The notes beneath the pieces are model-generated. The model was not told where the DNA came from and made no database searches. It was given only the letters and a program-made list of their open reading frames with translations. A stretch of 64,000 bases of DNA from Octopus sinensis (taxonomy: Eukaryota): assembly GCF_006345805.1 (NCBI RefSeq), contig NC_043001.1, positions 68,696,001 through 68,760,000 on the forward strand, given 5' to 3'. Below, in pieces: positions 1 to 52,790 of the stretch (position 1 is its first letter; each line of letters starts with the position of its first letter). A program made the translations under genes and the position numbers.

Positions 1-3000
1 ACAGACACCTCTTCTCCAGCCTGATTTTGATACTGAGGTGGTAACTAAAAAAGTTAATCAACCCCTGGCCGGAGACAAAGGTGCCTGTCACTATACCTTT
101 CGTACGCGTCTTCCATACTGTTTCTTTCAGTATGGCTACTACACAGAAAAAACAAGCCTTTCTTTCCCTGTTAAGGAAAGGGGGCGGCACAATCTCGATG
201 ATAGACTCAGCTGATAGCTGTACTCTTCCCATCACCGACAACAGTTGTTCAACAAAAGCTATCAGTCCCGATAACTCCGGACACTCCACGAATGCGTGCA
301 AGACGGTCTCCCTATCCTGCTCACATCGCGGGCATGTCGGCGAGACGGCACTACCGTGCCTTGACAGCTTGTCGCGAACAGGTAAAGCCGCACGGAAACA
401 CTGCCAGGCCAGGGATTTCTGGTAATTATCCAGATACCCCGGCCCGAACGTCCTCCGGAACAGGTTGACCAACTGATTTTCATCGTAGCCCAGGGTCTCC
501 CCCAAGGCGTCTTCGGACTTAATCTCCACTAACCCGCTATAGAAATCCGTGGTGGAACTCCTGTTGCCGGCGTTGCCCACCCGAGATAGTAGCTGGAGCG
601 CCTGACGGCACTCCAAATGCCATTCACTCAGTTTAGGTCTCCGCTTGATCCATGCACCGATGTCCGTTAGGGATGTTAACTGGGGAAGGTAGAACCGGAC
701 GTGCGGTGACCACACCTGCTCTCCATCCAGGTAAAGCCAGAGGTGCCTCAACCTTAACGCGAGTTTTCGCATCCTCAGCCAAGGCATCCCTAGCCCACCC
801 TTTAGCGGTTTCTGGCAGCAGACAGAGCGCTTTACAAGTGGCTTTCCTCCTTTCCACAAAAATCGGAAAAGGATTCTCTCCAACTTGTTCAGCCACAAAT
901 CGGGGCAAGGCACCACGGTCAGACGGTAGGTGATTACTGATGCTATAAACATCTGCACCACCTCCACCTTCCCTAGCAGGGATAACGCCCGCCCAGACCA
1001 GGTCTGGGTTTGAGCGGTCACCTTGCTGGCCACCTCACTCCAATTTTTCTCTATCTGGAGGTCTGGCCCGAACCAGACTCCGAGCAGCTTAACAGGACCT
1101 TCCGTCCAACGCCCTACGACGTTATTGGACGGTATCGGCTTGCCCCTCCAGGTGCCGAGTTGCAAACCGACCGACTTGTCCTTGTTCACCTTTGCTCCTG
1201 CCACCGCCTCGTAGCTTTTGATGGCCTCTTCCACCACTGGAAGCTGGCCTTCGTCTGCCACGATGATGGAGGTGTCATCCGCATACGCCGTAGCTCCTCT
1301 TCCACACCATAGATCATGCGGCGCGCCCCCTAGTGCCTCCAACTTCCGCAGCAAAGGCTCAAGAGCCAATACGTATAGGAGCGAGGACAGGGGACACCCT
1401 TGACGAACTGAATGCTCGATCCTGAACGGCTTCGAAAAGGAACCGTTCACCTTGACTACAGACTCGATGTCGCTATACAAAGCAGCGATCCAACCTCGAA
1501 AGGTCGGGCCTAGGCCAGCCTCTCCGAGGACCGCCGCCAGGTACCGATGGTCGACCCTATCAAATGCTTTGGACTGGTCTAAATGTACCAGTGCTCCCCC
1601 TGCGCCAGAAAGCTTCCCCACCCTCTCTAAGGAGTAGCGTATAAGGTGGAGATTGTCGTGGATCGTTCTGCCGGGGATAGCGCACGTTTGCGCTTCCCCG
1701 ACAAGTTTGTCCACGACCAGCGCCAACCTTTTTGCTAGCACCTTGGCCAGAATCTTTAACTCTGTGTTTAACAGAGTTATGGGCCTGAAGTTCCCTATCT
1801 CGTCCCCCTTGTTCGGGTCCTTCCTGATCAACGTCACCGCCCCCCGGCTCGCAGACTTGGGAATTCTATAAAATTGGCATACTTCTATAAAATTCATAGG
1901 GCAGACCATCGAGACCCGGCGACTTCTCCCCGGGGCACTTGCCCAACACCTCGATTACTTCCTCGGCTGTGATTGGCCCTTCACAGCACTCAGCCTCTCG
2001 TGTCGAGAGGCGCGGTCCATCAGACAGGAAGTCCCTAAGGGCCTCACCATGATCCAGCGTCCCGCACCTCCCGAACAACTCGGCGAAGTGCTTGTGAAGT
2101 GCCGCACACATCTCGTCCCGCTTCTTGATCGTGCATCCGTTTTCATCAACAAGAGACCCAATTGTGGAATAGTTTCCACGCTGTGTTTCTATCGTACGGG
2201 CCCATCCGGCAACATTAATTCCCTCACGGCCCAATGCTCGTACTTTAGCCCGGACTCTACATCCCTCATGTTTGGTTTTGAGGTGACGGTCTAATGCCGT
2301 TCTCGCCGCTAAAATGTGAGATGCAGAGCCCAACCTCAACGCCTCCTCTAACTTCTTAACTAGTTGCCCTTCTATTCTAGCCCTATCTAGTCTTAGTTGT
2401 TTACTAAATCTAATGGACTCGAATCGAATGGCTCTTTTGAGGGTGAACCACCACCGGTTATTAACCACGGCTCCGGTTAACGCCCTCTGCACTAACACCT
2501 TAATCCGGCTACGGTATGCCTCGCGTGTCAAAGTAGACTTGTTCAGCTTCCAGTAGCCGGTTCCTATCTTAAGTGTGCTATCTATGTCCAGTCTACACGT
2601 GACCATTCTGTGGTCAGTATAGGGCACCTGGACGAGCTGTGGACAACTAAAACTAGACTTATCTCTAGTTCTTATCACTATCCTGTCTAGATAAGACTTG
2701 AACCTTCCGTCGCCACTCATCCAGGTCCACTCTGGGACGTTCGGATGGTCAAGTCTGTAACGATCTGCCAGCTGAAACCGCTTAAGCAGATCCACGAGAC
2801 GTGAGTTCACTTTCCTATAGATCGAGCCAACGCTATCGATGTGTACGTCAACGATAGCATTAAAGTCCCCTAATATCACTAAAGTCTTCGACGTCACGAG
2901 AAAGCCCTCTAGGCGCCGATAAAAATCAGTTTGGAAACCTCTAGCACAAGGTGCATAGAGTCCGATCAACCTGAAGGCCTTACTGCTGTATGTCACATCA

Positions 3001-3286
3001 AGGACGCCAGCCCACCTTCTGGGTCTACATAGACTGTACTTGTCTGTAGAGCCAAGTCTTTACGGATCAGTACCACTACGCCCCCTCGCCCTCCGGTCTG
3101 GCCAGGAGACATGATTTTCTCGTAGCCATTCAGGAGAGGCGAGAAGGTTTGTAGGCTGTCCAGCTTGGTCTCTGTAGCAACCATCACATGTATATCATGT
3201 GATCTGAGGTCGTCGAGGAAACAAGCCTGCTTCCACTTCGAACTCAGACCACGCACATTTAAACAACCAAGGTTAAGCGAAGCCAT
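1..3286 (-). pseudogene. LINE ORF2 (APE endonuclease + reverse transcriptase + CCHC), frameshifts near 3000 and 1870
   Basis: EN motifs CLNVRGL, ATETK, GDFN, SYLDRI, TDH, GYWKLN and KSPGLDGLP. Manual translation gives RT motifs NFRPITLLN, LDQSKAFDRVDH, VRQGCPLS and AYADD, then CPRC..ETVLHAFVEC. The RT frame appears open to base 1. Confidence 0.92.
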
Positions 3287-3303
3287 TACAAAAAGTAAAA
3301 GTT

Positions 3304-4704
3304 CTACTTACATTTCGTTGGAGAGGTGGGGGCCGACCTCACCACACGTTTGTGGGCCCCTTCTTTCTCCTCTTTCTTCAGATAGTCCGGCAAGTTCGCG
3401 ATATGCCGGATGGCGTTTGGGTGTCTGTCTTTTAATTGTTTGAACGTTGTTTCCGCAATCCACGCGTGTCTATTTCGATCTTTGTATTTGTTGTACAGTC
3501 TTGCTGACTGAATGTGAACCACAATATCGTTTATGTATTTGTCTTGTGTGTCGAATTCAATTAATATGAGTTCATTTTCTTTTTTGTCTTCTTTTTCTGG
3601 GCCAGTTGAGCGGGATTTTTTTTCCGTGTCTGTGGTGTGTCTTTGTTTTTATTATTTTTTGTAGGGGATGTGGACGGGGATGCTGCACGAATTCTTTTAC
3701 GAACTGGTGTAAATCCCCCCTCTGATACCTCCATGGTATCGTCTGGGGTAGCAATAGTTTGTTCGGTAGGCGCCGCAGTTTTTAGGGGGGTGGGAGGTTT
3801 TAATAGTGTAGGGGTTTGTGAGTGCGAGGGCTGGGTTTTTTCTTCAGTCTGTTTTGGGGTTGGCACCGTAACAGCAGGAGTGGGATTTTTTGTTTTTGTA
3901 GGGGTAGGTGTGTTTGCAAGGGTAGGGACTTTTTTATTATCTGAGGGGCCTGGTGTCTGCGGTTTCTTTTGCTTGTCTGGACAGTCTACACGAATGTGGC
4001 CCTTTTTGCCGCAGGCGTAACAGGTGGGTTTTCGGCCTTCGACCTGTACCCTGAGGGCTACGTTCTCGCCCACGAGCACCCTCTCAGGAAGGAGCTGCAG
4101 GTCCTCCGCTGTTCCTTGAATTAATATATTAATGTTACGCCCGAGCCAAAATAGAGGGGTAGAGCATGTTACTTGTAGTATTTTTATTTTGTCCGCCCTT
4201 TTATATAACAGGGCGGCCACTACCTCTACCGGATCTACTTCCGGCGGGGCTTCTACAATCCTGACCCGGGACGTCCTGCGTCCCCTATAGCTTGGGAAAA
4301 GTACCACCTCCTTGGTTTTTAGGGGGTTCACAGAATGCCCGCGGGCCATTTCTTCCCCCGAGAAGCGGACATCCACAGTGCCATATGCCCGTCCCCTGGC
4401 GACGTACACGATGTCCTTCCAAATCGGGGACAGGCATTTCTCGATGGTGCTTTTTTCAAAGTGTTTGAACCTTCTGCTTTGTGGACAGAAAGTTTTAAAC
4501 ACTACGGTCCGCTTCTCGGTCCCACGATACTGGCGGAGGGTGATATTTTAACATCACCACCCTCCTCTTGCATTCTTTTAAATAGCTCGACGAGCTGATT
4601 ACATCGATGTCAATGTTCTCGGTAGCCACTGCGGCTACCGCAGAAAATTTTTTAACATTGCTCTCCTCAAGAGCACTACTTTCGTGAATAATTTCAACAG
4701 ACAT
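3304..4704 (-). pseudogene. LINE ORF1 (gag-like, zinc knuckle), split by about 2 frameshifts
   Basis: ORFs 4495-4728, 3561-4502 and 3304-3522 abut. Contains CYACGKKGHIRVDC (CX2CX4HX4C) followed by a Pro/Thr/Lys-rich low-complexity tract. Confidence 0.85.
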
Positions 4705-5499: not shown

Positions 5500-5561
<62 letters not shown>

Positions 5562-5702
5562 GCAATAAAGATTCAAGTTAATTTTAAAAATTTACTTGAA
5601 TATGGTACCCAACTTAGATGCACCAAAAAAACAATACTGATTTAACAATACAGTAATGTGGGGTGATTATAAGCGAGAAAGAAGCAACAAGAATGGATAG
5701 GT

Positions 5703-5793
5703 TTTTAGTACGATCGTTTCATACAAGGACAGGTTTTATTAAAAGTTGCAAAGATTACAGCATATAAACGAGTCCCGTACTCATCAGCTAAAA
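5703..5793 (-). ncRNA. Type I hammerhead ribozyme (mirror copy of 8457-8547)
   Basis: Reverse complement of the 8457-8547 motif. Confidence 0.82.
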
Positions 5794-7210
5794 TACATGT
5801 AAGTTCTCTAGACATCCTAGTGTTTGAGGCTATACTCATGAAGTAATGTAGATAATTAAATAGATTTCTAAAGTTCATTAAAGTTCCTTAAAGATGATGT
5901 ATAGTCCTATCACAGAATTTTAAAAAAGTTTTGATAGCATCACAGAGAAGGTGACCTAATCCATATGAATTTCCATAGATATGATGAGGGATTATATACT
6001 CACAGAAGACAAATTTATCCATTGTTATTAGCATTACAGAGAGGGTGAATTAATCCTTTGTATATATGCACAGATTCCAATGGTGTAGATGTAAATTTCC
6101 AGAGAAATGGAGATGAATTTCATATTCACAGGCGATAAATTTTACAATGGTTGAACACAATGAGGTAGGTACCAATCCTTGTTATATGATTAGGTGTTTG
6201 CCATATTAATCACATTACTGCTATTCACAAGAGGCTGTAGCTATTTAACTCTTAAAGGTTGAAGGGCTTACTAGATCGGCCAAAAATAGAGAAGGGAATA
6301 GAAGAAAAGAGAGAAAAAAGAGAAAATAATGGAGGAGGGAGCAAAAAAGGGGGGAAAGGGGGACTAAAAGAGAAGAGAAAAGGAAACAGAGAATAAGAAG
6401 AAGAAAAAGAAGAAAGAGAAAAGAGAAAGAAATAGGGAAAGAAGGGAAAAAAGAAAAAGAAAAAAGAGGGTTCTAGTTATACAGAAGAGCTAGTAGACTG
6501 TAAGTCTGGTTTTAATCAACAGGCATCTAAGAACTGGAGGGGAATATTATTCTTTGACCAGTAACCGTTAATTTATTGCTGTTGAAATCAGCTATGAGTT
6601 TAAAGAGAATCTAAAGAGATAACACAGTCAGGGGTTAAGGGGTCAGATGCTAAAATCACCAGAAAATACATTAGGAAAATCTAAGTATAATCTCCTCAAA
6701 AAGTCATTAAAAATTTACTTATTTAATTTATTCATTTTATTGTCTTAAGGAGTTGTCGTTATTATTCATACATTGACCGACTACAGGTCAAATCTTATAA
6801 GATCATTTACAAGGTGTTAGGGGATTGTCTATCCTAATGAAGATAATCATATTATCACCGAGGGAATAGCCTTATTTATTTAATTATGAAATAGAATTAT
6901 GGGGCTACAGTAACTAATTATAATTTATTAGAGTTATGCTATTTAAATTAGATTAAGTTAGGAATTAAAATTAAATATTACAATTAAGATTTAAAATTAA
7001 GAATTTAAAATTGCGAGTTTGAAATTAAATAAAGCCTCAATTAAGTAGCGAATAAGTACTATTCATTTCCCTGTTCTCAAAAAACTGATGTAGATATAAG
7101 GAAAAAGATAAAGATAACTGTAATGTGAGAACTCTTAGTTATCTACTTAAAGCAGTGCTATACTAGTAGAAATCAAGTTATATCTATCTATCTAGTTATG
7201 AATATTCCAA

Positions 7211-7424
7211 TCATTTAAAATATTTTAAAGTCTTCAATTTAGCGTGGACACAAACTTGACCTAGTTCGATATGGTTATTCAATAAGTTTCTATGTTTACT
7301 ATGCTTTAGAATTTCGTACGTCTCCATGGAGCATAGTTGACAACCAACCCTACTATTTTTATACGGAATTGCTCTCCTAACTATTTCCCAATTAAGGGTA
7401 TAATTTTTGTTATTATTTTTGAGT
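7211..7424 (-). pseudogene. PLE GIY-YIG endonuclease C-terminal fragment
   Basis: LNWEIVRRAIPY..GCQLCSMETYEI..LLN..ELGQVCVH matches the PLE EN tail pattern W-x-I..A..Y..C-x-LC..E..LN..C-x-H. Confidence 0.8.
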
Positions 7425-8456
7425 TCCCCTAACACCTTGTAAATGATCTTATAAGATTTGACCTGTAGTCGGTCAATGTATGAATAATAACGACAACTCC
7501 TTAAGACAATAAAATGAATAAATTAAATAAGTAAATTTTTAATGACTTTTTGAGGAGATTATACTTAGATTTTCCTAATGTATTTTCTGGTGATTTTAGC
7601 ATCTGACCCCTTAACCCCTGACTGTGTTATCTCTTTAGATTCTCTTTAAACTCATAGCTGATTTCAACAGCAATAAATTAACGGTTTACTGGTCAAAGAA
7701 TAATATTCCCCTCCAGTTCTTAGATGCCTGTTGATTAAAACCAGACTTACAGTCTACTAGCTCTTCTGTATAACTAGAACCCTCTTTTTTCTTTTTCTTT
7801 TTTCCCTTCTTTCCCTATTTCTTTCTCTTTTCTCTTCTTCTTTTTCTTCTTCTTATTCTCTGTTTCCTTTTCTCTTCTCTTTTAGTCCCCCTTTCCCCCC
7901 CTTTTTTGCTCCCTCCTCCATTATTTTCTCTTTTTTCTCTCTTTTCTTCTATTCCCTTCTCTATTTTTGGCCGATCTAGTAAGCCCTTCAACCTTTAAGA
8001 GTTAAATAGCTACAGCCTCTTGTGAATAGCAGTAATGTGATTAATATGGCAAACACCTAATCATATAACAAGGATTGGTACCTACCTCATTGTGTTCAAC
8101 CATTGTAAAATTTATCGCCTGTGAATATGAAATTCATCTCCATTTCTCTGGAAATTTACATCTACACCATTGGAATCTGTGCATATATACAAAGGATTAA
8201 TTCACCCTCTCTGTAATGCTAATAACAATGGATAAATTTGTCTTCTGTGAGTATATAATCCCTCATCATATCTATGGAAATTCATATGGATTAGGTCACC
8301 TTCTCTGTGATGCTATCAAAACTTTTTTAAAATTCTGTGATAGGACTATACATCATCTTTAAGGAACTTTAATGAACTTTAGAAATCTGTTTAATTATCT
8401 ACATTACTTCATGAGTATAGCCTCAAACACTAGGATGTCTAGAGAACTTACATGTA

Positions 8457-8547
8457 TTTTAGCTGATGAGTACGGGACTCGTTTATATGCTGTAATCTTT
8501 GCAACTTTTAATAAAACCTGTCCTTGTATGAAACGATCGTACTAAAA
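8457..8547 (+). ncRNA. Type I hammerhead ribozyme, long stem II, palindromic loop III
   Basis: ttttag-CTGATGA-gtacgggac...gtccttgtat-GAAA-c gatc g-TA-ctaaaa. Stem I ttttag/ctaaaa; predicted cut after A8541. Confidence 0.85.
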
Positions 8548-8576
8548 ACCTATCCATTCTTGTTGCTTCTTTCTCG

Positions 8577-8615
<39 letters not shown>

Positions 8616-8837
8616 TAAAATATTAGGGAATAAAACCAAACTTACAGGGAAAAATTAGATTTGGGATTAAATCCAATTTTATAGTAAAATATTATATTAT
8701 ATTAAATTAGAGATAAAACCACCATTAGGCAAATCAAACAATGAAAAACATAAGCCAATACATAAAGTTAATTAATTTATATTATTTCAAATATATATCA
8801 AAAGTATTAAAAGTTTAATAAAAGATAAAGAGTAAAA

Positions 8838-8906
8838 CACTACGATCGTTTCATGGCTGTACAATTCGTAATAATTCGAGTTATGGTTACAGTCAATCTT
8901 CAGGCA
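8838..8906 (-). ncRNA. Type I hammerhead ribozyme motif (mirror of 10143-10211)
   Basis: CTGAAGA...GAAAC GATC GTA on the minus strand; stem I is weak. Confidence 0.65.
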
Positions 8907-10142
8907 ATTGAAATTTCTAAAATATAATCAGAAATATTTAAACAATATTTTTAAGATATAAATGATATAATAATTTTACTTATAATAAACTCTATTATCA
9001 AACTAGAAACATAAAACTTAGCAATTATGATTATAGCAAAATCGACTATAATGTTAAATATTAATTTTAATTTATAAGGTAGGAAACCCACCAATAATCT
9101 AATATCGGTATTAGTCTATATCTAATTACATAAAAATTTTAAAATGACTAATATATATAAATTATCAATGAAAATATATAAATGTATATAAATATTATAA
9201 TTAAGATCTAAAATAATCTCTATAAATAAATATATATGCACATATAATAAAAACCTAATAAATTTAATTATTCATATTTAAAGATGAAATAGCTCATTTC
9301 AAAATACAAATAAACAAACTTAAACGAACTTTCGGAAATCTTATGTAAAATACTTATAGAAATAATCAATTCGTAGTAATATAGTATCGAATAAATACTA
9401 TAAATACTATAAATATAATTATCAATGGGAATAACTAGCGAATATCAATTTAAAGAAATAACTAATTATGCTATTAAATTAGACATGGCCTGGACCAGTC
9501 TTTAGTCGAAACATATCTAAGTTTATCAAAGTTTATCTAATCTAATTATAAATTTAAAACTACAATTAATACTATTAAAACATGTATATACAAAAGCCTA
9601 ACTTAATACACCTCGTATGCTTGTTATCAAATAACAAATCTATCGCTAAGTAGTATCTTACGAATAAACTTAAATTTAATATCTAATAATATAGAAAATT
9701 ACGATAATTAGATCATTACATAAACAATGATATTTACATAAGGAAAATATTATTACTCCAAAGACTTACACAATATTAAACTTTACAATTTGAAGATCTT
9801 AAAAATATTAAATTTAAGTTTATTCGTAAGATACTACTTAGCGATAGATTTGTTATTTGATAATAAGAGGTGTATTAAGTTAGGCTTTTGTATATACATG
9901 TTTTAATAGTATTAATTGTAGTTTTAAATTTATAATTAAATTAGATAAACTTTGATAAACTTAGATATGTTTCGACTAAAGATTGGTCCAGGCCATGTCT
10001 AATTTAATAGCATAACTTAGTTATTTCTTTAAATTTATATTCGCTAGTTATTCCCATTGATAATTATATTTATAGTATTTATAGTATTTATTCGATACTA
10101 TATTACTACGAATATTTCTGATTATATTTTAGAAATTTCAAT

Positions 10143-10211
10143 TACCTGAAGATTGACTGTAACCATAACTCGAATTATTACGAATTGTACAGCCATGAAA
10201 CGATCGTAGTG
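10143..10211 (+). ncRNA. Type I hammerhead ribozyme motif
   Basis: tac-CTGAAGA-ttgactgta...tacagccat-GAAA-c gatc g-TA-gtg. Confidence 0.7.
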
Positions 10212-10342
10212 TTTTACGCTTTATCTTTTATTAAACATTTGATATATATTTGAAATAATATAAATTAATTAATTTTATGTATTGGCTTATGTTTTTCATT
10301 GTTTGATTTGCCTAATGGTGGTTTTATCTCTAATTTAATATA

Positions 10343-20605: not shown

Positions 20606-20629
20606 ATAATTGAGATGGTAAACGTTTTT

Positions 20630-21057
20630 AATTTTCATTCCCTTCGAGAATTTACCCTTATTTGGTGGTTTGAGTTTTCTACTGCTCTTTCTAGCACAAG
20701 GCTTTCCTATTTGGAAGCCTCTTATTGTATTTCTATGTGAATAATATATAGTCTAATGACTAATTCGTTTTTGTGCTAGGCCACTGGTAATAATAATTTC
20801 CATTCCTTTCGAGAATTTATCCTTATTTGGTGGTTTGACTTTTCTACTGCTCTTTCTAGCACAAGGCTTTCCTATTTGGAAGCCTCTTATTGTATTTCTA
20901 TGTGAATAATATATAGTCTAATGACTAATTCGTTTTTGTGCTAGGCCACTGGTAATAATAATTTCCATTCCTTTCGAGAATTTATCCTTATTTGGTGGTT
21001 TGACTTTTCTACTGCTCTTTCTAGCACAAGGCTTTCCTATTTGGAAGCCTCTTATTG

Positions 21058-21064
<7 letters not shown>
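20630..21064 (+). repeat. 165-bp tandem repeat, about 2.6 copies
   Basis: cattcc at 20636 and 20801; gtgctaggcc at 20773 and 20938. Confidence 0.92.
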
Positions 21065-26825: not shown

Positions 26826-26899
26826 AAAACATACATATATATACGCCACCCTAAATTTTGTCTTTCTCTTCACCTCCTGTCAATCTTCTACTTTTGTTT

Positions 26900-27345
26900 T
26901 GATTCTGTAATAGACATTTCTTCAGTGCCATAAATTAGACACCACTTCAGTTTCTCTAAACGATAACTATTCTCTGCAAAGAATATTTTTTTAAAACATA
27001 AGAACGCCGGTGATAGTTCAAGAAATATTCCTCTAAAAAATTATGGCCGGACGAGTTGTCTTCCTTTGATTCATAGCTAGGTTTTCCAATGTTGAAGTAA
27101 AAATTTCCGAAAATGTGGGCAACTCCGCACGGCTTCCATCCTGGAGTTCAGGTAGCTTCCTGGCTCATGTGAGTTCATAAGGATTATATATCTTTCTGCT
27201 ACACACAATTTATACAGTATTGTTCCATTGCGATAGGGTCCATAAGTTTACAGTAATTTCCACGGACAGAGCCAAACTGTTCATGAAGGATTAGAAATGA
27301 ATGCCCAGTGGACGGCCGATGTAATACCGAGGCTACAGTGAACTA
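26900..27345 (-). mobile_element. PLE fragment, same family as 30110-30960
   Basis: 26945-27245 aligns in reverse with about 30600-30900; 27311-27340 matches 30332-30360. Confidence 0.7.
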
Positions 27346-30109: not shown

Positions 30110-30960
30110 TATCTTCGTTACAATATCATAAGTTAAGAGCATACCCTACAAAATATAGAGTAGTTTTATTTGTGTATGAGTATAGAAAGAAACCATTGGT
30201 TTCATATCTAATGTGAACTAGACATTTCTTCAGTTTCTCTAAAGAGTAACCGTTCTCTGCAGGGAATGTTTGCTTTAAAATACAAGACAGCCGGTGAGAG
30301 TTCAAGAAATAATTCTCTTTAAAAATATAGCCGGCCGATGTAACATTGAGGCTACAGTATACCAAGCAAAGATAACCTCAAACGGAAGCAGTACAAACAT
30401 CAATAACATCAATGCCAAAACAGGGACACAAACTGAAATTTATGTCGGATCCTGTGAATCTAGATTTAAAATTCGTCTGAACAAATGCATATCTTCTTTC
30501 AGAGTCGCGCAAAGGCGCAACACAACACTTGAAGCATACGTATGGCGCCTAAAGGACGATCATATATCCCTTAACATCAAGTAGAAATTATTGAAAGCTT
30601 GTGGACCCTCTCGTAACGGAACAAGAGTGTGTAAATTGTGTTCGGTAAAAAGATCTATAATTCTCATGAATTCATATGAGCCAGGAGGCTACCTTAACTC
30701 CAGCTCGGAAGTCGTGGGGAGTTGTCCACATTTTCGGAAATTCTTACTTCAAAATTGGAAAATCTAGCCATGAATCGAAGGAAGACAACTCGACCGGTGA
30801 TATTTTTAAGGATGATTATTTCTTGAACTATCATCGGCGTTCTTGTGTTTTAAAAAAACATTCTTTGCAAAGAACGGTTACTGTTTAGAGAAACTGAAGA
30901 GATTCACGCTAGATATGAAACCAATGGGGTTTTATCTAAACTTACGTTACACATACGCAG
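30110..30960 (+). mobile_element. Compact PLE remnant: GIY-YIG (30330-30770) between inverted pLTRs (30190-30338 / 30790-30932)
   Basis: GRCNIEATVYQAKI..IYVGSCESRFKIR..VWRLK..CKLC..YLN..CPH; inverted arms; HHR-like motif at 30186-30239 (-). Confidence 0.85.
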
Positions 30961-31014
<54 letters not shown>

Positions 31015-31257
31015 GATATATATATATATATATATATATATAGATATATATATATATATATATAAATTATATAATTAGGGCTTAGTAAAATAAATTACTT
31101 TGCCACATACTGAACTTAGTAGAAATAGCAGCCAAAAAAAAAAATTTTTTAGCCATTTCTACTACTTAAAGAAAATTTCTCTCAGATAATGTGTTACTCC
31201 AGACAGCTCCGAAGGTTTGGAGGTAAATACAGAAAAATATCACAAGTACATAGATCG

Positions 31258-31319
31258 TTTGAGTACGTCAACGTTTCAAGATTAGCCAAATAAAATCAGC
31301 ATTTTTTCGTCAGCTCAAA
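31258..31319 (-). ncRNA. Type I hammerhead ribozyme (mirror of 31949-32011)
   Basis: tttgag-CTGACGA...GAAA-cgttgacg-TA-ctcaaa on the minus strand. Confidence 0.8.
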
Positions 31320-31948
31320 ATTTCTTAATTGGATTGGAAACACTAAAAAGAAGGAACTTTACCTATCGGCGAAACTTGTCGCTTCAAATGAACCAGCTCC
31401 AACTGCCAGTGCCAACAAATTCAAAATGCGCAGGCGTAAATTGCTGCACTCCTTTTCCACCCACGTGCGTCTATCTAGCAAACATTATATTTTAACCGCG
31501 AGAACCGAGGCAGTATGACAGAGAGAAATGAATATAATATCAACAATTGAGGGTAAAATTAATTAATCACTTTCACCAAGTGTTCAGTATGTAAAAGGAC
31601 CATTTAAGGCGAATTCAAAATATTACATTATATAATTAGGGCTTAGTAAAATAAATTACTTTGCCACATACTGAACTTAGTAGAAATAGCAGTCAAAAAA
31701 AATTTTTTTAGCCATTTCTACTAATTGTTGATATTATAATTCATTTCTCTCTGTCATACTGCCTCGGTTCTCGCGGTTAAAATATAATGTTTGCTAGATA
31801 GACCACGTGGGTGGAAAAGGAGTGCAGAAATTTACGCCTGCGCATTTTGAATTTGTTGGCACTGGTAGTTGGAGCTGGTTCATTTGAAGCGACAAGTTCG
31901 CCGATAGGTAAAGTCCTTCTTTTAGTGTTCCAAATCCAAATTAAGAAA

Positions 31949-32011
31949 TTTGAGCTGACGAAAGAAATGCTGATTTTATTTGGCTAATCTTGAAACGTTG
32001 ACGTACTCAAA
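31949..32011 (+). ncRNA. Type I hammerhead ribozyme
   Basis: tttgag-CTGACGA-aaga..gctga..ttggc..tctt-GAAA-cg ttga cg-TA-ctcaaa. Confidence 0.87.
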
Positions 32012-32305
32012 CGATCTATGTACTTGTGATTTTTTTCTGTATTTACCTCCAAACCTTCGTGAGCTGTCTAAGTAAACATATCTGAGAGAAATTTCTCTTT
32101 AAGTAGTAGAAATGGCTAAAAAAATTTTTGGGGCTGCTATTTCTACTAAGTTCAGTATGTAGAAAGTAATTTATTTTACTAAGCCCTAATTATATAATGT
32201 AATATTTTGAATTCGCCTTAAATGGTTCGTTTTACATACTGAACACTTGGTGAAATTGATTAATTAATTTTACCCTCAATTGTTGATATATATATTATAT
32301 ATAAT

Positions 32306-32337
<32 letters not shown>

Positions 32338-32449
32338 ATATATATATATAATATATATATATATATAATATATATATATTTATATATATATATATAATGT
32401 GATGTATATATATAATATATATAATATATATATATATAATAATATTATT

Positions 32450-32860
32450 ATATTAGAGACAAAACCACTATTATGCAAATCAAACAAAGAAAGACTTAAA
32501 TTAATTTATATTATTTAGAAATTTAACAATCATTAAAATCCACTACGATCGTTTCATGTCTTCTTTTTTCACATAAAACTCGTCAAGAATATTTTGAAAC
32601 CACCTGAAGAATGTCTACTACTCAAAGATGTGATAAAAGAAGACATGAAACGATCGAAGTGGATTTTAATAATTGTTAAATTTCTAAATAATATAAATTA
32701 ATTCATGTATTGGCTTAAGTCTTTCTTTGTTTGATTTGCATAATTGTGGTTTTGTCTCTAATATAATATAATATAATATTTTACTATAAAATTGGATTCA
32801 ATCCTAAATCTGATTTTTCCCTGAAGTTTGGATTTATTCCCTAATATTTATTTTTAATAA
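32450..32860 (+). mobile_element. Miniature fold-back element, relative of 8610-10345, with HHR at 32600-32662
   Basis: Arms about 32450-32575 / 32628-32765. Motif ccac-CTGAAGA-atgtct..agacat-GAAAc gatc gAA-gtgg has a mutated cleavage U; the other arm keeps GTA. Confidence 0.8.
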
Positions 32861-32944: not shown

Positions 32945-33037
32945 GTATGGTATATGTGTCTTTGAGAGGAATTTGTCCCCCGCAGCAATTTAGTATTACT
33001 AAATTGAATTTTCCCTGTAAGTTTGGAATCATATTCC

Positions 33038-33070
<33 letters not shown>

Positions 33071-48306: not shown

Positions 48307-49570
48307 AGAAATGGTGCTCCAGCAAGGCTGCAGTCAAATGACTGAAATACAAAAAGTATACATATATATGGTATATGTGTGTGTGTGTGTTGCATATATG
48401 TATGTGTGTGTGTGTATGAGAGAGAAAGAGAGAGAGAGAGAGAGAAGAAGAGAGAAGGGGATAAGAGAGAAATTATTGGTAGATAAATCGACAAATGCAT
48501 AAATAGGTGAGCGGACAGTTACATTGAGTTGGTAGAAATAGGTGCACAGCTAAGATCATCGGAGTGTAAAATTCTCTTTAATGTTACAGCTTGAATCAAT
48601 CGTTTAGTTACAAAAGAAGTAAAGCAAGACATGCAAGAACACGCTATGGAAATCCACATTGTTGTTCGTGCGCGAGAATTTCGTTCACACCGCTGCATGC
48701 ACAAATTATATTCTCATAAACACATGAACGGTCTACATTCTCACTAAGGTTAAGTGGATAATATTTAGCTTTTACATGTTACAGTAATTAGACTGCGGTC
48801 AGGCTGGAGCATCTCTTTCAACGATTTAGTAGAATAAATCCATCTCAGTAAGTTTGTATCCTTGAAGCCAGGTAGTTGCTCTATCGATGGCTTAATGCTG
48901 AACTTCTATGTTTTCGGGTTCTTAAACCATCACAGGAATTGCGGGGTTTCAAACAAAAACACAAAGAACAGTCGGGGTACAAACATAAAGATACAATTAT
49001 GTATACACACACACACATATATATATACACAGGCGCACACATTAAGAGATGGAAGGTAGCGTTTCGGGTATTCGTTATGGATGATTTCTTATATATATAT
49101 ATATATATATAGGAAGAAATATTTATTTTTTCAACGCGTAAGTACTGATAGAACAGCAAATGTAGGATATAGTCCTTACAGAGCAGAAAAATCTGTCAGC
49201 AACCAGCCATGAGACTCGAACTAACATCACTTCAATTTCCAGTCAAAGTGCTTTACTATGTAAGCTAAACTGCTTTACTGACAAATTCTTCTGCAATTTA
49301 GAAATTATAAACTCATATAAAAAAGTTAGATGGAATAGAAAATACGTCATATGTAAACAAACATAGGTTTGGTTTTGAAGCGCTGATATGTATTGTGGTA
49401 CATGTAGAAAGATATATTTTTTCAACTCGTAAGTACTGTTAGGACAGCATATATAGGTTAAAATCCTTACAGAGTAGAAAAATCTATCTGCAACCAGCAA
49501 TGAGACTCAAACTTCAATACATTTCAGCGCTTCAAAAAATAAACTTATGTTTGTTTACATATGGAGGTAA

Positions 49571-50871: not shown

Positions 50872-52790
50872 TAGCTCATAGCTGTTTCTTATGTAACTTT
50901 TAATAGAAGGAAAAAATAACGCATTATAAAAGACCGTAATCATCAGATGAGAAGTAATTTTAGAAAATAAAAGAATATCCAGGAATATGTCTGTCGAGGC
51001 CAGCTATGAATTGGAAAAATAATCAGCTATGTTGGCAGTTTAGTTTAAGAATGTAGAGTGTTTAAGAATTAAGAGTGTAATTTCATATCCATAAACCTCA
51101 AGGAACGCTTATACAACCACTTTTCATCTTTTAAATTAAGACAGGGCTGGCAGAACATCTCTAGCTACAAAGATTTGAGAGCTCAAGTATGTGAAATTTG
51201 ATTCAAGCTGGTACATCAATAGGGTCGCTAAACCGTACTTAAATAGTAGATGCAGATGCAGACTTAGCTGTATGGAGCTATTTGAAATTTTAAGGAGATC
51301 TAATAGTGAAAATCTACAAAATAATGAACTAGCCCTTCGTTTTTCCTGTATACATAAGGCTTCCCGCACGTCTAAATACTTTAATGACATTAAACAACCT
51401 CTATAATAGCCCCCAATCTAGGTCCAGTCCAATTTTCTCCTTCTTTCGCTGATCCTTAGCCTGTCGATCTACCCATGCGTTTCTGAACCCTCCTAATCTC
51501 ATTTTCCCTTTACCAATATCTCCTCCATTCTTGCTATATTTAATCAGTATGCTATATTGAAGGAACTAACTATTCTATCTGTGATGTAGCCGGTATTATA
51601 CAATAGCGATGAACGTGATAAATGACGTGTTAGCCGCGTGCACACTTTAGACGGTTCGTTTCCATTTCTACTACTTGAGTGGTCCTTACACTAACATACA
51701 TTTTTCAGCAGCGCTTGCTATATAGTAGATAGAACAAGCTATTGAAACCTCGTTCCCACGACTATTATCTTGAGTTGCTTCCCTTCATTCACACTAAGTT
51801 GATAATACCATATCCAATCTCGATATCATAGACACCAGTTTAACATACCGTAGTTATTCATTAGATTATTCTCTATCGCTGGCCTTCCTGATTTCGATCT
51901 GCTATTTCCTATATCCCCCATACTAGGTGTATTTCATTATATAAAACCATCCTGTATTAATTTTTAAATTTTTAATTTTAAAATTTTAATCTTTCAACTC
52001 CTTATTGATAGGTAGCACTCTACTTTGCTATAACTTTAATTCAATAAGTTTGATCTTATTATTTAATGGCCTCCGTACTATTCCATCCCCCACTTTCAAC
52101 CAATATACACCGAGTGCTCCTAAGTTTCTGTTTCTCTATCCCCCTGCTCTGGTCATTTATCATTAACAAGAGGCTCCCATACCCCAACCGTTTACTTGAT
52201 CGGCTCGTATGCCTTTATTTCTATTTCTATTATATTTTTCTTTTTCTTTCACCCTTACGTTTGATCTATTTATCTTCTCTTTTTCCTTTATCCTTTACTA
52301 TGTTATGACCCCTCCTTCCTTACCACAAACCATAACTTACCATAATAAATTTTATCCTACAACCCAGTCCAGTCTACCCATGATCTAGTTTAGCAGACTC
52401 CTGCTCGCACGAATCACTAAACATAAATATCAAATTACACACTTTAAAAAACCACATTCTTAACCTAAACTGCCAACATAGTTGCTCATTCTTCCTTTCA
52501 TAGCTGGCCTCGACAGACATATCCTTGATGTATTCCTGGATATTCTTTTATTTTCTAAAATTATTTCTCATGTGATGATACGGTCTTTTATAATGCTGTA
52601 ATGTTCTCATTCTTCTATTAAAAGTTACGTAAGAAAGAGTTGCAATGAGCTGACAATTGAGAGTCAAAGACTATTGAAAAGGTTGCAAGACTCAACGAAA
52701 ATTTTAGGAAAATATAAATAAGAAATAAGTGGAAATTTTACCGGTGAGTGTGTTAAATTATAAAGCACAAAAAGAAAATGACTCCCCGAG
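50872..52790 (+). mobile_element. Older 5'-truncated PLE with inverted pLTR (50872-51083 / 52432-52652), EN tail 51084-51400
   Basis: LKERLYNHFSSF..SWYINRVAKPY..CRLSCMELFEI..NNEL..CIHK. Confidence 0.82.
52671..52707 (+). ncRNA. Minimal hammerhead, U3-A8 core variant
   Basis: cta-TTGAAAA-g gttg caagact caac-GAAAATTT-tag, in the expected position at the PLE 3' end. Confidence 0.6.

What the first reader, a model, noticed from the sequence alone, without database searches (positions are those of the whole stretch)
31066..32289. Circularly permuted about 560-nt HHR monomer: footprint of a retrozyme-like circular RNA
Seen: the minus arm is 1.17 head-to-tail monomers (period 561). The plus arm is one monomer in a different permutation, starting and ending with aattgttgatat. 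There is one intact HHR per monomer and no ORF. Known: animal non-LTR retrozymes are HHR-bearing tandem monomers of a few hundred nt that yield circular RNAs and are thought to borrow PLE machinery. Inference: two permutations in one insertion are what reverse transcription around a circle or multimer plus a PLE-type inversion would give. This would be a large, probably uncatalogued retrozyme family.
Basis: partly seen in the sequence, partly recalled or inferred. Interest (0 to 1): 0.78.

Follow-up and report, generated by a model that had tools for sequence, protein, structure and literature searches.

The report
Octopus retrozyme with Penelope insertion footprint
A 555-base non-coding repeat unit carrying a predicted self-cutting hammerhead RNA sits as two back-to-back copies in a TA repeat of a probable octopus genome and was likely pasted there by Penelope-like jumping genes; it is a probable new family of a kind known from many animals, and whether it makes RNA circles is untested.

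Summary
A 661-nt minus arm (1.18 units) and a 567-nt plus arm (one unit plus 12 nt) lie head-to-head in (TA)n. Each has a type I hammerhead (1 of 5000 shuffles); there is no ORF.

The unit is a multi-copy family. laid 336 and 782 variant contigs on it in two DNA runs, both with end-to-start joints.

The two permutations are not random circle openings. The minus arm's 3' end recurs at the same base (32198) in other copies. The plus arm adds an ~90-nt tail. Four neighbouring Penelope-like (PLE) insertions show the same short-end/tail-end, head-to-head layout, and published biochemistry ties it to two fixed reverse-transcription start sites.

So this is likely a non-autonomous PLE passenger, i.e. 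a non-LTR retrozyme. Its template was likely longer than one unit: a circle or an uncleaved multimer, about even odds. With one hammerhead per strand, this locus cannot release a circle itself.

Its size lies within the published 51-972 bp range. Circular RNA and cleavage are untested. Verdict: new member of a known kind.

The parts
30961..31065 (.). left (TA)n target tract, shared with the neighbouring PLE insertion 30113-30960
   Evidence: sequence
31066..31723 (-). minus arm, 1.18 units; 5' end at the central junction, 3' end is the 'short end' (equivalent to plus position 32198) running into (TA)n
31066..31165 (-). second, partial pass of the unit (repeat of 31627-31723); differs from the first by A/T-run length and one substitution
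   Evidence: (D5, D7)
31258..31319 (-). type I hammerhead of the minus arm, predicted cut 31264/31263; one-base deletion in stem II
31537..31560 (-). head-to-tail junction of the unit (tail end running into unit start) at 31549/31548
   Evidence: same joint in other copies in runs X3 and X5, table 5c
31718..31734 (.). head-to-head (5'-to-5') junction of the two arms, 1-nt overlap at 31723
31723..32289 (+). plus arm: one 555-nt unit (34% GC, non-coding) plus 12-nt terminal repeat
31949..32011 (+). type I hammerhead, predicted cut after GUA at 32005/32006
32096..32277 (+). structured 3' module (three hairpins, z -5.5) that holds the short end and most of the tail; shared with more diverged relatives
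   Evidence: tables 2, 7
32186..32198 (+). short end (recurrent 3' terminus at 32198; likely RT start site 1)
   Evidence: loose ends at 32198 in X3 (7 contigs), X10 (1), X15 (1)
32199..32289 (+). 'tail' of 87-91 nt between the two termini (likely RT start site 2 at its end; last 4 nt may be target-derived)
   Evidence: comparison with neighbouring insertions
32290..32440 (.). right (TA)n target tract, shared with the neighbouring insertion 32440-32856
   Evidence: sequence

Best explanation
This is a two-armed, head-to-head insertion in (TA)n of a 555-561-nt non-coding, multi-copy unit with a predicted hammerhead ribozyme, likely a non-autonomous passenger (non-LTR retrozyme) copied in trans by a Penelope-like RT/endonuclease. 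Shown: the anatomy, the family, the head-to-tail joint in other copies and the recurrent 3' end. Inferred steps: (1) a source locus with two or more tandem units is transcribed; (2) the PLE protein binds the structured 3' module; (3) its GIY-YIG endonuclease cuts both strands of AT-rich DNA; (4) each DNA end primes reverse transcription at one of two fixed sites on the RNA, the short end (32198) and the tail end (about 32289); (5) both cDNAs run through the hammerhead site on a more-than-unit template and are joined 5' to 5'. I lean slightly to an uncleaved linear multimer as template (about 55:45 against a ligated circle). This locus is likely a dead-end product: one hammerhead per strand cannot excise a monomer.
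For: Anatomy. Hammerhead beyond chance: 1 of 5000 shuffles. No ORF or endonuclease remnant. Family: 20 of 24 listed runs hold part of it, 10 studies, 4 organism labels; in the 4 runs laid, 336, 115, 782 and 40 contigs, about three quarters under 99% alike, cover all 30 bins. End-to-start joints in the DNA runs X3 (2 rows) and X5 (1 row) (table 5c; side lengths not given). Loose ends at exactly 32198 into AT-rich sequence in X3 (7 contigs), X10 (1) and X15 (1), among the 24 of 120 rows shown; none shown for X5. One X15 contig holds a second, much shorter head-to-head copy (opposite-strand joint 32119/32230, ending at 32198). Four other two-armed insertions in the window (5556-8580, 8607-10335, 30113-30960, 32440-32856) have outward-reading hammerhead-like motifs, one short end, one tail end and (TA)n flanks; two of them carry endonuclease C-termini whose homologues match Pfam GIY-YIG (3 of 16 alignment rows) and have an upstream CxC..CxxxGxC motif. 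Two neighbours without ORF share a motif with this element at the short-end/tail boundary (4 matches in the window, all at such boundaries). Literature: tail, partial tandem and inverted 5'-truncated copy are the PLE footprint (PMC8557442; PMC3846280); PLE RT starts at two adjacent internal sites that define the tail, cuts and extends both strands at AT-rich DNA, and uses unprocessed RNA in vitro (PMC11167929); animal retrozymes are pLTR-related (preprint). Both arms carry the same base at four sites where most laid depth differs (31859, 31865, 31884, 31902), consistent with one source element.
Against: No autonomous partner was found: no ORF-bearing element in the window shares the unit's sequence, and no genome was available. 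No array with two complete hammerhead units was seen; contigs were short (longest laid piece about 350 nt). The tail is about 90 nt against the 30-40 bp usually quoted, although neighbours also have long tails. The boundary motif is AT-rich and was defined by eye. Folding stability is confined to the 3' module (rest z about 0) and controls reach z -4.4, so a 'highly self-paired circle' is not supported. The shared-allele argument fails if the window's species differs from those laid. Only 1 of 9 Xenopus retrozyme dimers cleaved in vitro, so a good-looking core does not guarantee activity.
Confidence: 0.75

Rival explanations
1. One reading: RT primes at arbitrary points on a 560-nt RNA circle, so genomic copies are random permutations.
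For: Both arms cross the hammerhead site uncut; the minus arm exceeds one unit; the plus arm is one unit plus only 12 nt, as if RT stopped on meeting its own start. Coral, mussel and axolotl retrozymes do accumulate as circles (PMC7229834).
Against: The 3' end at 32198 recurs in 3 of 4 runs; the short/tail pair matches neighbouring PLEs and fixed RT start sites. A circle with FIXED start sites remains possible and is counted inside the best explanation (about 45%).
Confidence: 0.07
2. The unit is just the long pLTR/3' UTR of an autonomous PLE; this locus is a partial tandem of 5'-truncated copies with no independent life cycle.
For: All insertion hallmarks are those of ordinary PLEs, and neighbours show long non-coding 3' regions (8607-10335 has about 1.7 kb without ORF). 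Diverged relatives share the 3' module (table 7). 96 loose-end rows and the letters beyond the reference ends were not shown.
Against: Truncation points of tandem copies should vary, yet the same tail-end-to-start joint occurs here and in contigs of two organisms, and the plus arm begins at that same point. Among the loose ends shown, none branches to foreign sequence within the first 400 nt of the unit.
Confidence: 0.13
3. DNA-level satellite or an assembly fold-back artefact, with the hammerhead a passive relic.
For: The arms differ at 27 of 488 columns, mostly single-base indels, several absent from the runs laid, as expected of either decay or sequencing error in an inverted repeat.
Against: A fold-back would mirror one arm exactly; these arms have different permutations and different ends, one of which recurs in independent runs. 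The locus is dispersed in (TA)n among PLE insertions, not in an array.
Confidence: 0.05

Closest known systems
Metazoan non-LTR retrozymes (Cervera & de la Pena 2020, PMC7229834, parts 2-4 of 6 and passages read; Li, Clavereau & Pollet 2026 preprint 10.64898/2026.07.22.740005, parts 1-3 of 5 read)
   Same: Non-coding, GC under 50%, type I hammerhead, head-to-tail unit, many copies, coexisting with PLEs; size within 51-972 bp; solo monomers are a described class.
   Different: Longer than the 150-450 bp of the 2020 paper; no cephalopod in the main text of either paper; this locus has under two units per strand; carries a clear PLE short-end/tail-end, head-to-head footprint, which the parts I read do not describe for retrozymes; circle not shown.
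EN+ Penelope-like elements (Neptune-type neighbours in this window; Poseidon PAc of Anolis, PMC11167929, parts 1-2 of 4 read; Craig et al. 2021, PMC8557442, passages)
   Same: Partial tandem, inverted 5'-truncated arm, tail on one end only, hammerhead upstream of the ends, AT-rich/(TA)n target, termini in a stem-loop region.
   Different: No RT or endonuclease ORF; tail about 90 nt; hammerhead has a 3-bp helix III rather than the minimal form.
Non-autonomous Chlamys PLEs such as MRC1 of Chlamydomonas (PMC8557442, passage)
   Same: ORF-less, form pLTRs and head-to-tail insertions, resemble autonomous families at the 3' end.
   Different: Green-algal Chlamys clade, mostly without hammerheads; different target repeats.

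Membership tests
Non-LTR retrozyme | type I hammerhead in the repeat unit | tested here: met
   (1 of 5000 shuffles); minus copy damaged in stem II; no Rfam hit
Non-LTR retrozyme | non-coding, GC below 50% | tested here: met
   34% GC, no ORF or EN similarity
Non-LTR retrozyme | head-to-tail unit, multi-copy | tested here: met
   junction in minus arm; end-to-start joints and hundreds of variant contigs in two DNA runs
Non-LTR retrozyme | at least one locus with two or more complete hammerhead units (source of monomers) | tested here: inconclusive
   not at this locus (1.18 and 1.02 units); contigs too short to show it elsewhere; no genome
Non-LTR retrozyme | unit size | tested here: met
   555-561 nt: above 150-450 bp, inside 51-972 bp
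Non-LTR retrozyme | highly self-paired monomer | tested here: inconclusive
   circular z -5.4 (plus, 40 shuffles), -2.5 (minus, 25 shuffles); signal confined to 3' module; 5 controls ranged -4.4 to +0.6
Non-LTR retrozyme | self-cleavage and circular RNA in vivo | not testable with these tools
   only contigs were available; they cannot show ends, strand or circularity
Non-LTR retrozyme | loop 1-loop 2 tertiary contacts of canonical hammerheads | not tested
   helix lengths (6, 4, 3 bp) are canonical-like; pair 10.1-11.1 is A-U, not the conserved G-C named in PMC4209133
Autonomous EN+ PLE | RT + GIY-YIG ORF | tested here: not met
PLE-type insertion | partial tandem plus inverted 5'-truncated arm, head to head | tested here: met
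PLE-type insertion | tail at one end only, recurrent termini | tested here: met
   (32198 directly; tail end only by inference from contig lengths); tail longer than 30-40 bp
PLE-type insertion | AT-rich or (TA)n target | tested here: met
   a target-site duplication cannot be discerned in (TA)n
Non-autonomous PLE | 3' end shared with an autonomous family | tested here: inconclusive
   diverged relatives share the 3' module but their ORF content is unknown; no ORF-bearing match in the window

The most novel reading that the evidence does not exclude
A high-copy cephalopod retrozyme whose RNA circle is the direct template of a Penelope-like enzyme, primed at the two fixed PLE start sites. The plus arm, one turn plus 12 nt, would record RT halting on its own start. 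This would be genomic footprint evidence that retrozyme circles are mobilised by PLEs, and a short natural substrate for testing how PLE tails and inversions form.
Probability: 0.3. Interest if true: 0.55.

Novelty: new member of a known kind. Interest (0 to 1): 0.33.

Why it matters
PLE mobilisation of animal retrozymes is proposed from coexistence and pLTR similarity. This element shows the mechanical footprint itself (short end, tail end, head-to-head arms, TA target) on an ORF-less hammerhead unit, beside ORF-bearing PLE ends with the same layout. It is a compact system for asking whether the template is a circle or a multimer. It also extends retrozymes to a probable octopus; my literature searches and a 2026 octopus repeat annotation (no mention of ribozyme, hammerhead or retrozyme in its main text) showed no such family, but repeat libraries and two papers' supplements could not be checked. 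The kind of element is known, so the gain is incremental.

Tried and rejected
No whole genome is held, so copy ends could not be counted genome-wide.

Rfam found no hammerhead at either threshold.

Expression: no RNA holder listed; X10 and X15 are only guessed to be RNA, so they are used here for sequence content alone. Depth is not a copy number. The higher depth over 32160-32273 fits 5' truncation or shared ends, but it is confounded by this copy's private changes.

Exact-pattern scans of metagenome and prokaryote contigs found 0 matches in 4 of 4 scans. The scan's earlier findings held nothing by sequence, by place, or for two of four word queries (only near-matches).

A direct Pfam scan of four neighbouring ORF pieces gave no GIY-YIG hit, and a word-based homologue search found none. 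The identification comes from HMMER hits (24 proteins) and their alignment. Ten of those hits were looked up and had no informative names.

Rejected as evidence: whole-unit folding z-score (controls overlap). SINE reading: no tRNA in the unit and no B box (box consensus recalled). Remnant ORF: none.

Supplements: PMC7229834 was unreadable and may list further invertebrate examples; the preprint's were not available; PMC11167929's gave no hits.

Full report
Setting. The window is repeat-rich animal DNA. A LINE ORF at 1866-3056 has, as its only hit with an organism name among 21, an Octopus bimaculoides protein at 83% identity over 36% of the query, so the host is probably an octopus (inference). 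No genome was held.

Observation. The element lies between two (TA)n tracts. The minus arm spans 31063/66-31723 (661 nt, period 559-561) and the plus arm 31723-32289 (555-nt unit plus a 12-nt repeat). They are 94% identical, differing at 27 of 488 columns in the main overlap. Their 5' ends meet at 31723 and their 3' ends face outward. The plus hammerhead has a 6-bp stem I, CUGACGA, a 4-bp stem II with extension, GAAA, a 3-bp stem III with a UUGA loop and GUA at 32003-32005. The descriptor hit 1 of 5000 shuffles, and the active fold is within 0.3 kcal/mol of the local minimum. The same descriptor gave 5 hits in the whole window; two of them (47964, 19851) I did not follow up and may be chance. 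The minus copy lacks one stem II base and fails the descriptor. Rfam did not detect either copy. There is no ORF and no endonuclease remnant.

Family. Twenty of 24 listed public runs, from 10 studies and 4 organism labels, hold 26-45% of the sampled words; the window's own source may be among them. I laid 4 of the 20 on one unit at 85% likeness. The two probable DNA runs gave 336 and 782 contigs, about three quarters under 99% alike, covering all 30 bins, so the unit is a diverged multi-copy family. End-to-start joints appear in X3 (two rows) and X5 (one row); side lengths were not given. In X15, one contig extends 18 letters before the start and another 12 letters past the end. That sums to 30, the overlap expected of adjacent k=31 contigs (k recalled; letters not shown), so it is a weak further sign of the joint and of a branch at the tail end.

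Ends are recurrent. The minus arm stops matching the unit at the equivalent of 32198. Loose ends into AT-rich sequence at exactly 32198 occur in X3 (7 contigs), X10 (1) and X15 (1), among 24 of 120 rows shown; none was shown for X5. One X15 contig has an opposite-strand joint 32119/32230 and ends at 32198, which I read as a second, short head-to-head copy. The plus arm carries 87-91 nt beyond that point. Four other two-armed insertions in the window (5556-8580, 8607-10335, 30113-30960, 32440-32856) show the same plan: outward-reading hammerhead-like motif, one short end, one tail end, (TA)n flanks. Two carry endonuclease C-termini. Their homologues (24 hits) show an upstream cysteine motif and a C-terminal CxLC..C-H pattern, and 3 of 16 alignment rows match Pfam GIY-YIG. 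I read this as Neptune-type from the clade description in PMC8557442; no tree was built. The two ORF-less neighbours share an AT-rich motif with this element at the short-end/tail boundary.

Mechanism. Partial tandems, an inverted 5'-truncated arm and a one-sided tail are the standard PLE footprint (PMC8557442 and PMC3846280, passages). In the one reconstituted PLE, the enzyme cuts and extends both strands at AT-rich DNA and starts RT at two adjacent internal sites that define the tail. Hammerhead cleavage is not needed there, and unprocessed RNA is the main substrate (PMC11167929). The two 'permutations' are therefore best read as the two fixed start sites. The unit's folding stability sits entirely in 32096-32277 (z -5.5, against about 0 elsewhere), the region with the short end and tail; it is a likely protein-binding module (inference). 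Because the minus arm runs past its own start and both arms cross the hammerhead site intact, the template was longer than one unit. A circle (proposed for PLEs in PMC4209133, and shown for coral, mussel and axolotl retrozymes in PMC7229834) or an uncleaved multimer both fit. The plus arm's one-turn length hints at a circle. The in vitro data and the minus arm's 100-nt overrun fit a multimer more simply. I put it at 55:45 for the multimer. Both arms share bases at four sites where most laid depth differs, which suggests one source element, unless the species differ. Several plus-arm bases (for example 32095, 32161-62) are nearly or wholly absent from the runs, so they are decay or assembly error. 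With one hammerhead per strand this locus cannot excise a monomer; the preprint's definition of an active retrozyme needs two complete units.

Comparison and novelty. It works like a non-autonomous PLE and meets the sequence-level criteria of a non-LTR retrozyme. The multimeric source locus and the autonomous partner are unresolved, and cleavage and circle are untestable here. It is not an autonomous PLE. A 2026 preprint already argues that animal retrozymes are non-autonomous PLE derivatives, with lengths of 51-972 bp and many solo monomers; it sampled no mollusc. Non-autonomous PLEs such as MRC1 are also known. My searches returned no paper describing a cephalopod retrozyme, and an Octopus vulgaris repeat annotation (PMC13282606, part 1 of 3 read plus term search) does not mention ribozymes. 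Repeat libraries and unseen supplements may still contain the family. PMC2377424 was seen as passages only and adds that most PLEs appear to need a partial tandem for transcription.

Verdict. Real feature and probably an unlisted family, but of a known kind. Interest 0.33.

Noticed in passing
window 5556-8580: Near-perfect (99.7% over 1159 nt) head-to-head PLE insertion with hammerheads at 5787(-) and 8463(+), an endonuclease C-terminus at 7214-7522(-) and a tail of about 115 nt on the left arm; probably recent.
   Followed up: partly
window 8607-10335 and 32440-32856: A second hammerhead family with no ORF in the window, very AT-rich, short end plus ~90-nt tail; arms 80-94% alike; the larger copy has an unmatched ~430-nt block in one arm. 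Could be another non-autonomous family or a long 3' UTR. Tail-like fragment also at about 32990-33045.
   Followed up: partly
window 30113-30960 and 26880-27270: Two members (84% alike) of a Neptune-like PLE family with the endonuclease C-terminus; the first directly abuts the finding's left (TA)n tract, making three stacked PLE-type insertions in 30113-32856.
   Followed up: partly
window ~51110-51400: Further decayed GIY-YIG C-terminal remnant (profile E 2e-5).
   Followed up: no
window 32136-32256: The 3' module is an imperfect 120-nt inverted repeat (61%) centred near the short end; one search shows more diverged relatives sharing 32163-32264, candidates for the autonomous partner or sister families.
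   Followed up: partly
window 31991, 32000, 32005: A minority of laid depth (about 6-28%) differs at each of three hammerhead positions (stem II base, loop III, GUA to GUU), perhaps a subfamily; no variant row was shown for the CUGACGA or GAAA cores.
   Followed up: no
window 1560-4547 (-): LINE with a gag-like ORF (3561-4547) and an endonuclease/RT ORF in pieces; nearest named hit Octopus bimaculoides.
   Followed up: partly
window 49199-49275 (-): ARAGORN calls a tRNA-Ser(GGA) inside a 291-nt-spaced direct repeat (49115-49222/49406-49513); probably SINE-derived.
   Followed up: no
window 20629-21061: 165-nt tandem repeat, about 2.6 copies, 96-98% identical; no hammerhead motif detected in it.
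   Followed up: no
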